64,000 nucleotides of DNA from Leucoraja ocellata (lineage: Eukaryota): assembly GCA_036785375.1 (NCBI GenBank), contig JAWMAR010000081.1, forward strand, positions 3,100,001-3,164,000, written 5' to 3'. The position numbers are program-made. This document shows positions 12,001-64,000 of the stretch, one piece after another (within the stretch, counting starts at the first letter, position 1; the number at the start of each line of letters is the position of its first letter).

Positions 12001-15000
12001 GAACATGGAAGTAGATTGATCTGCTATGGCTATTTTGATGGCTATGAGCTTTTGGTACAACTTGGATTGGATTTGTTTGTTAGGTTTGTGCTCTACCTAT
12101 ATTTTTAATCTGCATGTCATTGAACAGATATAATAGTTAGATTATCTACATCATTGAAGGCTGCAGGTAGCGGCACACAATTTACTAATAATATTGGAAT
12201 CCAATAAAGCTGTACTCTTTCATGTACCACAGTTAGAAATTGAAGTCAAGAATAATGAAATCTGAATTTTGTTATTCATAAACTGAAGTGCTCATCTATT
12301 TTTAATTCTTCTACCAGTGACAGCAAGTGAGCTAACAAGTATCTGGATCATTTTTATTTCTAATTTAAGTTCTCAATGTTTCATTGTTGATTACATAGTT
12401 ATATGCATTAATTCTGCATGTTGTGTTTTTCAAATCGGGTCCCTAGCTATGTATTCTATTTAATCTAGAATCAAGCTGAAAACTGACTTAATCAAACTGA
12501 TACACTTATACAGATAGAATAACAGATCAGATTGCACGTTGGAATATGCTGCGTTGTCAACTTGCCACCTGCAACTGTTTGATTACCAGCAGCTGTGAAA
12601 TAGCTCCATCAACTTGGATTGTTTTTATATGTCTCCAGCAGCAATTGCTGCTTTAGATTTTCACTGGACCAATTACTTTTTGGCTGTTGGTATTATAAAA
12701 AGTGGAGAGGTGATCTTCGTTCCCAAACAAATTGAATTTCCTTTATTGTCATTCAGACCTTACGGTCTGAACGAAATTTTGTGCCTGCAGTCATACATAC
12801 AATGATACAATAGTAAACAACACTAAACACAAATTAACATCCACCACAGTGAGTCCTCCAAACACCTCCTCACTGTGGTGGAGGCAAAAATCTTAGGGCT
12901 GCAGTCTCTTCCCTCTTCTCCCTCTGCGCTGAGGCGATTCCCCACCGGGCGATGGTACAAACAGTCCCGCAGCTCACCGAACCCCGCGAACGGGCCGGTT
13001 CAAACACTGCGGCCCGGGGTGGTCGAAGCTGCCGCACCTCCAGTCCAGCACACGCAGCCGCCGGCCCGCGGCTGAACCCAGGACTCTGGACACCGCCGCT
13101 AGAACGTCGTCCCAGCCACCGGAGCACCGTCCCAGCCCCCGGACCGGATCGCCCTCACGTGAGTGCCGTTCCACCCTCGGGCTGGGCCACTCCAGCGGGA
13201 GTGCCGTTCCTCCCTCGGGCTGGGCCACTCCGACGGGAGTGCCGTTCCTCCCTCGGGCTGGGCCACTCCGACGGGAGTGCCGTTCCTCCCTCGGACTGGG
13301 CCACTCCGACGGGAGTGCCGTTCCTCCCTCGGGCTGGGCCACTCCAGTCCCTCACCATGCCGCTCTCACGGGAGCACCGTTCCATCCCGGGCTGGGCCGG
13401 GAGCGAGCCCAGGACGAGTCCTGTCAGCTGCCTCCAGAGTCCCGAGGTCGCCGGCTCCGCTAGGCCTCAGCGTAGACGGAGGCAGAGAAGGGGGATACGA
13501 CAAAAAGGTCGTATTCCCCCGAAGGGAGTGACAGCAGCCCCCGTTTCACCCCCCACCCCCCTCCCCACATAAACACAGCCTAAAAACCAAAAACATAACT
13601 AGACAAAACGAAAAAAAACAACACAAAAAAGTAAAAGACAAACGGACTGCAGGCGAGCCGCAGCCGTTCCCAGCGCCGCCACTTCCGCCGCCACTTCCAA
13701 AGGGATTGGGCAGCATTAAGGTTGTCCATCTTTCTTCTACCTTCAATTCTCATTAACTGTATCACATTTACAGCACGATCTCCTTCTTTATAAAGCCAAA
13801 AGGTTGTCATTCGGGAATCTTGTGCAAAAAAAAATGGTGTGCAGGAATTAATCTAATTCTGCATTTAAATGTTTTCAAAATTATTTCTTGATTCATAACA
13901 TGGATTCTTGGTATTTTGCTAGTCGGAGAACTAAGCAAACATGGACATTTTCCTGTTCATTTCACATTGACACAATTGAAAATCCAGTCTAGACCAGCTA
14001 ATAATAATGAACATAATATTTTATTAGAATGAGAATACAGAACAATAGAGAGTACGAAGAAAATAAAACATAAAACAAACAAGTTTTGTAACATCCCACT
14101 AATTATAGTTCCATCTCAAAAAAGTAACTTCCTTCAGAGAGCATAATCATTGACCTTCCTCCATCATGTGTCAGTAATGAAGCTAATAGCTGATAATTGT
14201 ACATTGTTCAATTCCATGTCCAGCTCCTCGGAAAATGAAGCAATCTGCAACTACTTCCAGCACAGCCTTTTATTCAGCTTGCAGGGTTTTGAGCTGAAAT
14301 GTCAACCATTCATCTCCAACACAGGTGTTCCATCTCCATCATAGATGTTCCTCTACATGCTGAGTTCCAGGCAGATTGTTTGTTGCTCCTTTTATTCCTA
14401 CTTTCCTGCGTTTCTCTATTACTGTCCCTTTTAATCTTAATTCATCTTCAGTTCAGATCAGTCTTTGTTTGTCTTTAACTTTTAAATTATTTTACCTACA
14501 TTTGGCAATCCCCTGAAAAACAATTAAGTATATCATATTAAATAAAGTGGAATTTTGAAAGGGAATCAGGAAGAGAATCAAATGTATCAAGTTGCTTGTA
14601 GAACCTGAAAACTGAGAAAGGCAATTCATGGTAATTTGTATTTCTTTCAGCTAACAGAGATAACTAATAATAATAACAATGGAATGAGAAAAGTAAAGGG
14701 ATTGGGTGCACCTAGTTCAGGTAAGTCTTTCTACTGAAAAAAATATTCCTCAGATTAATATTTGTGTTTTAAGTTCTGATAATCAATTGCATTCCAATTA
14801 ATATACTGCGGCGTACCATGTCATCAGAAATATAAATATTTTTGATAGTAAAACAAAATTGTTTCATCTCGTTTCTTACTGGTATTAGCTTATTATGGTC
14901 AAATGTACTGAGATATCCATTCAAATCCTACCATACATGAGTACAATCTAGCCATAGACATATACAACAGGACATTAAAATATCAGAGTAGCAGCGGGAA

Positions 15001-62400: not shown

Positions 62401-64000
62401 AAGGGTAGAGTGCTGACATGGATAGAAAATTGGTTAGCAGGCAGGAAACAAAGAGTAGGGATTGACGGGTCCCTTTCAGAATGGTGACTAATGGTGTACC
62501 GTAAGGCTCGGTCCTGGGACCGCAGCTATTTACAATATATATTAATGATTTGATGAAGGGATTGAAAGTAACATTAGCAAATTTGCAGATGACACAAAGC
62601 TGGGTGGCACTGTGAACGGTGAGGAGGATGATATGAGGATGCAGGGTGACTTGGACAATTTGGGTGAGTGGGCAGATGCATGGGAGATGCAGTTTAATGT
62701 GGATAAATGTGAGATTATCCACATCAGTGGCAAAAACAGGAAGGCAGATTACTATATAAATGGTGACAAGTTGGAAAAAGGGTAAGTACAGTGGGATCTG
62801 GGGAGTCCTTGTTCATCAGTCACTGAAAGTAAGCATGCAGGTACAGCAGGCAGTGAAGAAAGCGAATTACATGTTGGCCTTCATAACAAGAGGAGTTGAA
62901 CATTGGAGCAAAGAGGTCCTTCTGCAGTTGTACAGGGCCCTAGTGAGACCACACCTGGAGTATTATGTGCAGTTTTGGTCTCCAAATTTGAGGAAGGACA
63001 TTCTTGCTATTGAGGGAGTGCAATGGTTCACAAGGTTAATTCCTGGGATGACAAGAATAGGGGCTAAGCCATTTAGAATGGAGATGAGGAAATACCTTTT
63101 CACACAGAGAGTTGTGAGTCTATGGAATTCTCTGCCTCAGAGGGTGGTGGAGGCCGGTTCTCTGGATGCTTTCAAGAGAGAGCTAGATAGGGCTCTTGAA
63201 AATAGCGGAGTCAAGAGATATGGGGAGAAGGCAGGAACGGGGTACTGATTGGGGATGATCAGCCATGATCACATTGAATGGCGGTGCTGGCTCGAAGGGC
63301 CGAATGGCCTACTCCTGCACCTATTGTCTATTGTATTAAATAATAAAGTAATGATAATGTTCAACATGCTAATATACATAGGAAACTACTTAATGACGGT
63401 GTACATTCAGAAGATGTTTAGAATTTTGTAATTTGGCTTCCTTTTTATCCTTAGAAGACCATGAATTGTCAACTTCTCACACAACTAAAGTGTTCTCTTT
63501 TATATCTGGCTATGAACGGCAAGCCACAGACATTCCCAGTGTGACTAATCCAATCCCAGAACCCGATCCTACTAACGCAGGAGAGGCAGAATTTACAGGT
63601 AGTTCTAACAATATGTGTATTCTATATTTGAAATAAGCAATGGAGTAAATAATTGAAAGTGCATGCTTAGGTTCATCACAATTAAGGAAAAACGTCTGGA
63701 CAGGTGCCACAGTTGCCATACTAGGCCTTTATGTGAATATTTGTTTTGGTTATGTGTAAGGCATGGAAGAGCATGCAAAGCACAGCATACTGTACACTTA
63801 GCTGTCTTTCCTTAACTTGCTTCATCATTGTTGGCAACAATGTGAGAGAGCGTTGGAAGAAAATAAGAGGCGGTATGAAACTGATGAGATTGCTCTGTTT
63901 GGTTCTCATATAATTCTAATGAGCTGGATGACTTTGTTCCTTACTGTATTAAAAAAATTAAGTAATGATTATTTACAATGTGCTAATATTCATAGGAAAC

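What the first reader, a model, noticed from the sequence alone, without database searches (positions are those of the whole stretch)
14651..64000. Hidden gene built from an expanding array of about 24 symmetric phase-1 micro-exons
Seen: 24 AG/GT-bounded segments on the + strand with lengths 63(70), 45, 93, 69, 69, 90, 90, 81, 81, 84, 90, 87, 84, 75, 117, 141, 117, 138, 144 and 144 x5. All are divisible by 3, phase 1/1 and stop-free, and most end in ACA G|GTA. Spliced, they give about 826 codons of Cys-free S/T/P/E/D-rich repeat. Established: symmetric phase-1 cassettes allow any combination to be skipped or duplicated, as in CD44 variable exons, CD45 A/B/C exons, titin PEVK and ABI3BP. Inference: a lineage-specific modular protein whose length and composition are tunable by splicing and exon duplication. 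I cannot match it to a known gene.
Basis: partly seen in the sequence, partly recalled or inferred. Interest (0 to 1): 0.85.

Follow-up and report, generated by a model that had tools for sequence, protein, structure and literature searches.

The report
Tandemly duplicated phase-1 coding exon array
This stretch holds part of a real but still unnamed vertebrate gene, in which some two dozen small same-phase exons encode a floppy Ser/Thr/Pro/acid-rich protein segment that grows by copying exons and shrinks by losing them; this kind of gene structure is already known.

Summary
All 24 AG/GT-bounded segments are at the stated places. Segments 2-24 are stop-free in the phase-1 frame in 23 of 23 cases, against 8 and 0 of 23 in the other frames. 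Such segments are in excess only on the + strand in phase 1: 21, against 2-7 in the other five classes and a mean of 2.7 in shuffles.

Exons 15-24 are clear paralogues. The last five lie in ~620-bp tandem units where exons are better conserved than introns and carry no indels. Older copies are conserved only over the exon plus about 24 intron bases after the donor. Five decayed copies show exon birth and death.

Exons 1-3 have no support beyond chance. Similarity among the short exons 4-14 is weak.

I read this as a genuine coding exon array for a disordered region, of the same kind as the ABI3BP and CD45 cassette regions. Alternative splicing, lineage specificity and "hidden" status were not tested. 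It is a new member of a known kind, of moderate to low interest.

The parts
14651..14720 (+). Candidate exon 1 (70 nt, phase 0 to 1, in-frame ATG at 14684; or 63 nt from 14658 as phase 1/1). Weak.
   Evidence: Good acceptor and GTAAGT donor; open frame; resembles no other exon; no Pfam match; no signal peptide.
20210..20254 (+). Candidate exon 2 (45 nt, basic). Weak.
   Evidence: Splice sites and open frame only; shuffles yield 2.7 such segments per 49 kb.
21055..21147 (+). Candidate exon 3 (93 nt, Lys/Arg-rich). Weak.
   Evidence: no Pfam match.
23215..23283 (+). Exon 4 (69 nt), short family
   Evidence: ttacag acceptor and ACAG|GTA donor; not recovered in leave-one-out (rank 440).
24591..24659 (+). 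Exon 5 (69 nt), short family
   Evidence: leave-one-out rank 3; the DNA profile of the long units matches this exon and its donor flank, E 1.9e-4.
25546..25635 (+). Exon 6 (90 nt), short family
   Evidence: leave-one-out rank 75.
27858..27947 (+). Exon 7 (90 nt), short family
   Evidence: leave-one-out rank 1, E 1.2e-5.
29514..29594 (+). Exon 8 (81 nt), short family
   Evidence: leave-one-out rank 2; acceptor flank shared with exons 9, 10 and 12.
32792..32872 (+). Exon 9 (81 nt), short family
   Evidence: leave-one-out rank 17.
33324..33407 (+). Exon 10 (84 nt), short family
   Evidence: leave-one-out rank 2.
34067..34162 (+). Decayed short-family copy (pseudo-exon)
   Evidence: Hit of the short-family HMM outside its training set, E 0.0014. 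The donor position reads AT and a stop follows.
36908..36997 (+). Exon 11 (90 nt), short family
   Evidence: leave-one-out rank 7.
37477..37563 (+). Exon 12 (87 nt), short family
   Evidence: leave-one-out rank 164.
40104..40187 (+). Exon 13 (84 nt), short family
   Evidence: leave-one-out rank 267.
45292..45366 (+). Exon 14 (75 nt), family unclear
   Evidence: leave-one-out rank 128; weak DNA-profile hit, E 0.26.
46649..46765 (+). Exon 15 (117 nt), long family
   Evidence: Leave-one-out E 8.6e-8; nhmmer E 1e-15.
48311..48528 (+). Decayed long-family copy
   Evidence: nhmmer E 7.9e-5 and E 0.055. Only the 5' half is recognisable; a stop comes before any donor.
51243..51383 (+). Exon 16 (141 nt), long family
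   Evidence: Leave-one-out E 1.4e-7; nhmmer E 6e-22.
51613..51778 (+). Decayed long-family copy
   Evidence: nhmmer E 8.2e-6 with a 20-nt deletion; stops in all three frames.
52481..52597 (+). Exon 17 (117 nt), long family
   Evidence: Leave-one-out E 1.1e-5; nhmmer E 1.5e-14.
53189..53428 (+). Decayed long-family copy; the frame is still open but the acceptor AG is lost
   Evidence: nhmmer E 0.013; 84% identity to the acceptor flank at 51628-51678; frames.
53918..54007 (+). Degenerate long-family copy (90 nt, phase 1 kept, donor weakened to ACAA|GT). Pseudo-exon or weak exon.
   Evidence: Protein HMM E 3.7e-6; nhmmer E 6.3e-6; sequence.
55875..56012 (+). Exon 18 (138 nt), long family
   Evidence: Leave-one-out E 9e-5; nhmmer E 6.9e-23.
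56615..56758 (+). Exon 19 (144 nt), long family
   Evidence: Leave-one-out E 4.7e-11; nhmmer E 2.2e-18.
59506..59649 (+). Exon 20 (144 nt), tandem unit 1
60130..60273 (+). Exon 21 (144 nt), tandem unit 2
60744..60887 (+). Exon 22 (144 nt), tandem unit 3
61366..61509 (+). Exon 23 (144 nt), tandem unit 4
61785..63329 (+). Transposon insertion (CR1-like LINE 3' part) in the intron between units 4 and 5
   Evidence: It breaks the tandem array. Its ORFs resemble those at 18074-18676 and 35216-35750.
63455..63598 (+). Exon 24 (144 nt), tandem unit 5
63954..64000 (+). Start of a sixth tandem unit, cut by the window end
   Evidence: nhmmer, profile positions 6-52, E 0.0011.
59277..64000 (+). Array of ~620-bp tandem units, each one exon plus one intron
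   Evidence: Self-BLAST identity 84-87%; identity matrix.

Best explanation
The region is part of one protein-coding gene on the + strand. At least 21 small exons (4-24), all in intron phase 1/1, encode a cysteine-free Ser/Thr/Pro/Glu/Asp-rich segment without a stable fold: a spacer, stalk or linker region.

How it changes (shown): the array grows by tandem duplication of whole exon-plus-intron units, most recently the ~620-bp units at its 3' end. It loses exons when splice sites or the reading frame decay.

Why the design tolerates this (shown by arithmetic): every exon is a multiple of three, starts with two bases of a codon and ends with a G as the first base of the next. Any duplication, loss or skipping therefore keeps the frame and cannot create a stop at a junction. 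The junction codon is Glu or Asp at 19 of 23 neighbouring junctions.

Inferred: the 18 intron bases at +7 to +24 after the donor are conserved among the long exons and may be a shared splicing control element. That would fit regulated cassette use, but cassette use itself was not shown.

Identity: the gene is not identified. The best leads are an ABI3BP-like matrix protein or a CD45-like surface protein.
For: Excess and frame:
- Good-splice-site, open, symmetric segments are in excess only for + strand phase 1: 21, against 2-7 in the other classes, shuffle mean 2.7 and largest 9.
- Exons 2-24 are open in the phase-1 frame in 23 of 23 cases, against 8 of 23 and 0 of 23 in the other frames.

Paralogy:
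- Long exons 15-24 find each other in leave-one-out HMM searches of 3371 six-frame ORFs, E from 9e-5 to 1e-15.
- Their lengths (117, 141, 117, 138, 144), with ends set by homology, are all multiples of three.

The five youngest units:
- Exon identity (89.6-93.8%) exceeds intron identity (84.2-89.9%) in 10 of 10 pairs.
- Gapped columns: 0 of 144 in the exon, 40 of 408 in the introns, Fisher p 5.8e-6.
- Variable or gapped columns: 27 of 144 against 144 of 408, p 2.2e-4.
- dN/dS is 0.30 over codons 1-33, where 10 of 99 sites vary.

Older paralogues: identity is 60% in the exon body, 67% at intron +7..+24, and 31-33% further out. These are exon-centred islands of conservation.

Decay: five decayed copies have lost the donor, the acceptor or the frame. 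That is expected if the intact copies are kept by selection.

Fold: AlphaFold2 on one 47-residue exon with its 10 paralogues gave pLDDT 64.6, pTM 0.15 and no helix or strand of reportable length, only a 3-residue helical turn.

Literature: symmetric exons, often arising by tandem duplication, are known to encode disordered regions (PMC3632108, abstract and section 19).
Against: - No transcript evidence of any kind was available.
- No homologue or family was found for any exon: Pfam on 26 exon peptides gave one chance-level match, E 0.11; the PDB profile search gave one chance-level match, E 0.78; the ESM Atlas gave no usable hit.
- No start of the gene was found. There is no signal-peptide exon and no terminal domain in the window.
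- Exons 1-3 rest on splice sites and an open frame only, at about the chance rate.
- In the short family, 6 of 11 exons (4, 6, 9, 12, 13, 14) were not recovered in leave-one-out (ranks 17-440). Only exon 7 was significant.
- The profile comparison of the long and short families found no relation (probability 1.5%).
- The last 14 codons of the young exons change at about the intron rate: 17 of 42 sites vary, 14 of them non-synonymous, pairwise dN/dS 1.42. Constraint there is on the frame only.
- Counts over pairs of five related copies are not independent.
Confidence: 0.8

Rival explanations
1. The array is real, but it belongs to an ordinary, conserved and already annotated vertebrate gene, for example the disordered cassette region of an ABI3BP orthologue or the variable region of PTPRC/CD45. 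It would then be neither lineage-specific nor hidden. This rivals the reader's interpretation, not the exon reading.
For: - ABI3BP is an extracellular matrix protein. Its longest isoform has 1786 residues, and a block of cassette exons spanning about 38 kb encodes disordered parts that are variably included (PMC9239745, passages).
- Its disordered region 391-818 is partly spliced out (PMC13518942, passage).
- CD45 has a Ser/Thr-rich N-terminal region from alternative exons 4-7 (PMC8380896, passages).
- A catfish CD45 paper title names thirteen alternatively spliced exons. I saw only the title, in reference lists.
- Composition and exon sizes here fit this kind.
Against: - No FN3, cysteine-rich or phosphatase exon and no signal-peptide exon lies in the window.
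- No sequence comparison with either protein could be made.
- S+T+P is only 36.9% and there is a single N-x-S/T sequon. As I recall, that is unlike the CD45 variable region.
Confidence: 0.5
2. The segments are not expressed coding exons. They are a decaying or non-coding tandem and dispersed repeat, or a dead gene fragment, that happens to keep open frames and AG/GT ends.
For: - No transcript evidence was available.
- The youngest copies are a plain ~620-bp tandem repeat.
- Five copies are visibly decayed.
- The last third of the young exons evolves at about the intron rate.
Against: - Among the old copies, conservation is confined to the exon and its splice-site flanks.
- The frame is kept in 23 of 23 segments in one phase only.
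- The young exons have no indel, against 40 gapped intron columns.
- The excess is specific to one strand and one phase.
- The decayed copies show what loss of constraint looks like here, and the 21 intact exons do not look like that.
Confidence: 0.08
3. The repeats are intronic material of a gene on the opposite strand.
For: None found. The - strand was examined only by ORF listing and the splice-segment scan.
Against: - The - strand has 2, 2 and 4 candidate segments in the three phases, at the shuffle level.
- The - strand ORFs that I scanned with Pfam gave only transposon domains (reverse transcriptase, endonuclease) or nothing.
- ACAGGTA occurs once on - against 22 times on +.
Confidence: 0.02

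Closest known systems
ABI3BP (target of Nesh-SH3) disordered cassette-exon region
   Same: It has a long disordered, low-complexity region encoded by a block of many cassette exons that are included or skipped together (PMC9239745 passages; PMC13518942 passage). The exon array here has a similar span (about 40 kb) and encodes a cysteine-free, unfolded segment.
   Different: - No fibronectin type III exon, signal peptide or GC-AG first intron (the last feature from PMC7242645) was seen in the window.
- Sequence similarity could not be tested.
- The phase and size of the ABI3BP exons are recalled, not seen in any call.
PTPRC/CD45 variable exons (A, B, C in mammals; more in some fishes)
   Same: An N-terminal Ser/Thr-rich, O-glycosylated region is built from alternatively used exons (PMC8380896 passages). 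A catfish paper title names thirteen such exons; I saw the title only. As I recall, the fish exons arose by duplication.
   Different: - There are at least 21 exons here.
- S+T+P is only 36.9%, with many hydrophobic residues (25.5%).
- There is one N-x-S/T sequon where shuffles give 7.1.
- No signal-peptide exon lies upstream.
- The downstream domains lie outside the window.
Disordered proteins built of class 1,1 symmetric exons (calpastatin, MAP2)
   Same: The genes are assembled from 1,1 exons that encode disordered modules and often arise by internal tandem duplication (PMC3632108, abstract and section 19). These proteins lack a signal peptide, and none was found here.
   Different: No Pfam match to any family, these included, for any of 26 exon peptides. 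As I recall, calpastatin is rich in Lys; the repeats here are acidic and poor in Lys.
Titin PEVK and CD44 variable exons
   Same: Both are arrays of small exons of like phase that encode unfolded segments whose length is set by exon number and splicing. This is recalled; no paper was read for it.
   Different: The composition differs (PEVK is rich in Pro, Glu, Val and Lys, as I recall). There is no sequence evidence for kinship and no transcript evidence here.
Dscam-type clusters of mutually exclusive tandem exons
   Same: Tandemly duplicated exons of equal length (144 nt x5).
   Different: No docking-site or selector-like complementary intron sequences were found. All 8 inverted repeats in 56000-64000 were single pairs, none repeated in each tandem unit; at least two pairs lie in transposon-derived sequence.

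Membership tests
Array of symmetric phase 1/1 exons encoding a disordered region (a kind, not a gene family) | All exons are a multiple of three and share one intron phase, with that frame open | tested here: met
   23 of 23 (exons 2-24) are open in phase 1, against 8 and 0 of 23 in the other frames.
Array of symmetric phase 1/1 exons encoding a disordered region (a kind, not a gene family) | The encoded peptide lacks a stable fold | tested here: met
   AlphaFold2 on one 47-residue exon with 10 paralogues: pLDDT 64.6, pTM 0.15, no helix or strand of reportable length. Composition: 0 Cys, S+T+P+D+E 50.6%. Only one exon at a time was folded.
Array of symmetric phase 1/1 exons encoding a disordered region (a kind, not a gene family) | Origin by tandem exon duplication | tested here: met
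   Five ~620-bp exon-plus-intron units at 84-90% identity. Older paralogues and decayed copies.
Array of symmetric phase 1/1 exons encoding a disordered region (a kind, not a gene family) | Exons are used as alternative cassettes | not testable with these tools
   No transcript data. The only indirect hint is the conserved intron stretch at +7..+24.
ABI3BP | Fibronectin type III domains flank the disordered region; a signal peptide is present; the first intron is GC-AG | tested here: inconclusive
   None was seen in the 64-kb window. These parts could lie outside it. The GC-AG feature is taken from PMC7242645.
ABI3BP | Sequence similarity of the exon peptides to ABI3BP | not testable with these tools
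Pfam has no model that matched.
PTPRC/CD45 | A signal-peptide exon just upstream of the variable exons; cysteine-rich, FN3 and two phosphatase domains downstream | tested here: inconclusive
   No signal-peptide exon in 1-23300. The downstream part is outside the window.
PTPRC/CD45 | A match of the N-terminal peptides to the Pfam CD45/PTP N-terminal models (the existence of these models is recalled) | tested here: not met
   0 such matches in 26 exon peptides at E up to 10.
Mucin-like O-glycosylated domain | A secreted or membrane protein with a very high Ser/Thr/Pro content | tested here: inconclusive
   S+T+P is 36.9% with 25.5% hydrophobic residues. No signal peptide was found. Glycosylation cannot be tested.
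Calpastatin | Calpain-inhibitor repeats | tested here: not met
   No Pfam family for any exon peptide. Only the part of the gene inside the window was tested.
Dscam-type mutually exclusive exon cluster | Competing complementary intron sequences (docking and selector sites) | tested here: not met
   All 8 inverted repeats in 56000-64000 are single pairs, and none recurs in every unit.

The most novel reading that the evidence does not exclude
The array belongs to a gene without a named orthologue. Its 47-residue module has a constrained N-terminal two-thirds and a freely changing, perhaps diversifying, C-terminal third. Exon number turns over quickly by birth and death. A shared intron element just after each donor sets which modules enter the mRNA. 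This would be a surface or matrix protein with a tunable, fast-evolving repeat region, as in proteins caught in host-pathogen or reproductive conflict.
Probability: 0.15. Interest if true: 0.55.

Novelty: new member of a known kind. Interest (0 to 1): 0.3.

Why it matters
If the exons are expressed, this locus is a clean natural example of how a disordered protein region changes length. It holds whole exon-plus-intron units copied in tandem, older copies conserved only over the exon and its splice signals, and dead copies left in the introns, all in one 50-kb stretch. It also gives annotators of this genome a concrete set of junctions to check, because small repetitive exons of this sort are easily missed or collapsed. 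It does not reveal a new principle: symmetric phase-1 exon arrays that encode disordered regions are well described.

Tried and rejected
Searches that gave nothing.
- Pfam on 26 exon peptides: one chance-level match, E 0.11.
- PDB sequence search with the long-exon profile: one chance match, E 0.78.
- ESM Atlas with one 47-residue exon: no usable hit.
- Rfam on the whole window: 0 matches.

Structure:
- AlphaFold2 on one exon gave no fold. I therefore ran no fold search, which would be meaningless on such a model.

Relations within the array:
- The profile comparison of the long and short families showed no relation.
- A DNA profile of the long units did touch exon 5, E 1.9e-4. I treat common origin of the two families as only suggested.
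- No Dscam-like docking or selector complementarity: all 8 inverted repeats were single pairs, none recurring in each unit.

Gene ends:
- Two scans for a signal-peptide first exon, with GT and with GC donors, found none convincing.
- The CpG-rich block at 13001-13500 could be a promoter. It also resembles 44222-44373, so it may be a repeat.

Literature:
- Eight searches found no description of this locus.
- The two catfish CD45 papers are not held.
- The ABI3BP review has nothing on exons.

Not used: collections of bacterial genomes, phages, plasmids and E. coli, which cannot bear on a vertebrate gene. No complex prediction was run.
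Full report
**1. Is it there?**

The lengths are 70 (63 from an inner acceptor), 45, 93, 69, 69, 90, 90, 81, 81, 84, 90, 87, 84, 75, 117, 141, 117, 138, 144 and five times 144. They sum to 2485 nt, which is 826 codons with the 63-nt form.

- Segments 2-24 are stop-free in the phase-1 frame in 23 of 23 cases. The phase-0 frame is open in 8 of 23 and the phase-2 frame in 0 of 23.
- 18 of 24 segments end in ACAG|GTA. This heptamer occurs 22 times on the + strand and once on the - strand. 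The total of 23 compares with a shuffle mean of 7.6 and a largest value of 16.
- The in-frame peptides (805 residues) have no Cys, 36.9% Ser+Thr+Pro, 13.7% Asp+Glu, 7.6% Lys+Arg and 25.5% hydrophobic residues.

**2. Is it more than chance?**

I scanned 14651-64000 with fixed splice-site score cut-offs for symmetric, open segments of 45-150 nt. There were 21 donors for + strand phase 1, against 6 and 7 for the other + phases and 2, 2 and 4 for the - strand. One hundred block shuffles gave a mean of 2.7 and a largest value of 9.

The excess is therefore specific to one strand and one phase. The same control shows that about three chance segments are expected. That is the number of segments (1-3) supported only by splice sites and an open frame. 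These three are Lys/Arg-rich and resemble no other segment.

**3. Are they exons?**

*Paralogy.* The long exons 15-24 find each other in leave-one-out profile searches of all 3371 six-frame ORFs, with E between 9e-5 and 1e-15. The short family is much weaker. Only exon 7 is significant (E 1.2e-5). Exons 5, 8, 10 and 11 rank 2-7. Exons 4, 6, 9, 12, 13 and 14 rank 17-440. What ties the short exons together is phase, composition and, for some, a shared acceptor flank ending in ttacag. A profile-profile comparison of the two families found nothing. A DNA profile of the long units did match exon 5 and its donor flank at E 1.9e-4, so common origin is only suggested.

*The five youngest exons.* They lie in ~620-bp exon-plus-intron units that are 84-87% identical.
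- Exon identity (89.6-93.8%) exceeds intron identity (84.2-89.9%) in 10 of 10 pairs.
- No exon column has a gap, against 40 of 408 intron columns (p 5.8e-6).
- Codons 1-33 have dN/dS 0.30, and 10 of 99 sites vary.
- Codons 34-47 change about as fast as the introns: 17 of 42 sites vary, 14 of them non-synonymous, and pairwise dN/dS is 1.42.
- These pair counts come from five related copies and are not independent.

*The older long paralogues.* Identity is 60% in the exon body, 67% at intron positions +7 to +24, and 31-33% at +25 to +48 and -48 to -25. Conservation confined to the exon and its splice-site flanks is what true exons show.

**4. Birth and death**

- 34067-34162: the donor position reads AT, and a stop follows.
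- 48311-48528: only the 5' half is left, with a stop before any donor.
- 51613-51778: a 20-nt deletion, with stops in all frames.
- 53189-53428: the frame is open but the acceptor AG is lost.
- 53918-54007: the 5' half is lost and the donor is weakened.

The first 47 bases of a further unit lie at 63954-64000, so the array runs off the window. A CR1-like LINE fragment (61785-63329) was inserted between units 4 and 5.

**5. How it most likely works**

*Shown.* Every exon ends in G and is a multiple of three. Any duplication, loss or skipping therefore keeps the frame, and no junction codon can be a stop. At neighbouring junctions the codon is Glu or Asp in 19 of 23 cases. One 47-residue exon, folded with its ten paralogues as the alignment, gave pLDDT 64.6, pTM 0.15 and no helix or strand of reportable length, only a 3-residue helical turn.

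*Inferred.*
- The product is a disordered spacer or stalk whose length is set by exon number.
- The conserved intron stretch after the donor (gta, C or G, tt, then YTRACA and a tgtgt motif) may be a shared splicing element.
- The exons may be used as cassettes.

No transcript data were available, so alternative splicing is not shown. There is no sign of a Dscam-like system of competing intron pairings.

**6. What gene?**

This is unresolved.
- Pfam on 26 exon peptides gave nothing beyond one chance-level match.
- The PDB profile search gave one chance-level match.
- The ESM Atlas and Rfam gave nothing.
No comparison with vertebrate proteins was possible, and that is the main gap.
- Upstream of the array (1-14 kb) I found only LINE fragments and a CpG-rich block with a 38-bp tandem repeat.
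- No signal-peptide exon was found with either GT or GC donors.
- The - strand shows no gene: only background splice-like segments and transposon ORFs.
- I do not take the contig for human. It carries CR1-like LINE copies with long open frames, and no tool flagged it.

**7. Comparison with what is known**

- Symmetric exons preferentially encode disordered regions and often arise by internal tandem duplication. Calpastatin and MAP2 are built of 1,1 exons (PMC3632108, abstract and section 19).
- ABI3BP has a disordered region whose cassette exons, spanning about 38 kb, are variably included (PMC9239745 passages; PMC13518942 passage).
- CD45 has a Ser/Thr-rich N-terminal region from alternative exons (PMC8380896 passages). 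A catfish paper title names thirteen such exons. I saw titles only in reference lists, and the papers are not held.
- The present array is of this kind.
- From recall only, the style of the short repeats is reminiscent of the ABI3BP disordered region. That is a lead, not a test.
- Against a CD45-like mucin region stand the moderate Ser/Thr/Pro content and the single N-x-S/T sequon, where residue shuffles give 7.1 (3 of 2000 shuffles gave 1 or fewer).
- Supplementary files of the papers were not seen and might list exon sizes or phases.

**8. Verdict**

The coding exon array and its growth by duplication are real. 'Tunable by splicing', 'lineage-specific' and 'hidden' were not tested.
- It is a new member of a known kind.
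- My confidence that this is a genuine coding exon array is about 0.8.
- My confidence that it will turn out to be part of an already named, conserved gene is about 0.5.

Noticed in passing
window 8553-10844 (- strand) and 3449-6150 (+ strand): Two LINE fragments. One on the - strand has reverse transcriptase (Pfam RVT_1, E 1.1e-33) and endonuclease (E 3.6e-15). A second, on the + strand, has a weaker reverse transcriptase match (E 2e-5). Their open frames of up to 293 residues suggest fairly young copies.
   Followed up: partly
window 2718-3007 and 7899-8188; also 18074-18676, 35216-35750, 62760-63334, and inverted at 58201-58361: Repeated LINE 3' ends that share a conserved C-terminal peptide. 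The first pair is 93% identical. From recall they resemble the CR1 type. Three copies sit in introns of the exon array in the same orientation as the gene.
   Followed up: partly
window 13001-13500, with a 38-bp tandem repeat at 13157-13345: A CpG-island-like block: GC 0.71 and CpG observed/expected 0.8, against 0.34 for the whole window. It lies 1.2 kb upstream of candidate exon 1. It could be a promoter, but 12742-12888 resembles 44222-44373 (74%), so it may be part of a repeat.
   Followed up: partly
the first 24 intron bases after exons 15-24 (e.g. 52598-52621, 56013-56036, 61510-61533): The donor-proximal intron is as conserved as the exon bodies among old paralogues: 67% at +7..+24 against 33% at +25..+48. 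It carries a YTRACA motif, in full at 8 of 10 exons, followed by tgtgt. It is a possible splicing control element, and the motif looks like a branch point.
   Followed up: partly
exon peptides of 14651-63598: N-x-S/T sequons are depleted: 1 observed against 7.1 expected from within-exon shuffles (3 of 2000 shuffles gave 1 or fewer). Part of this is due to Asn usually being followed by Pro. The meaning is unclear.
   Followed up: partly
window 15154-15222 and 17885-17965: Two further phase-1, open, AG/GT-bounded segments (69 and 81 nt) with good splice sites lie between candidate exons 1 and 2. They resemble no other exon and have no Pfam match.
   Followed up: partly
window 59277-63858: Units 2 and 5 of the tandem array share a 12-nt intron deletion and an extra 3' stretch, and units 1 and 3 are the most alike in their introns (89.9%). 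The array therefore probably grew by copying blocks of more than one unit, or was reshuffled by unequal crossing-over.
   Followed up: partly
window 23420-23478: A perfect (TA)n microsatellite of 29.5 copies just downstream of exon 4.
   Followed up: no
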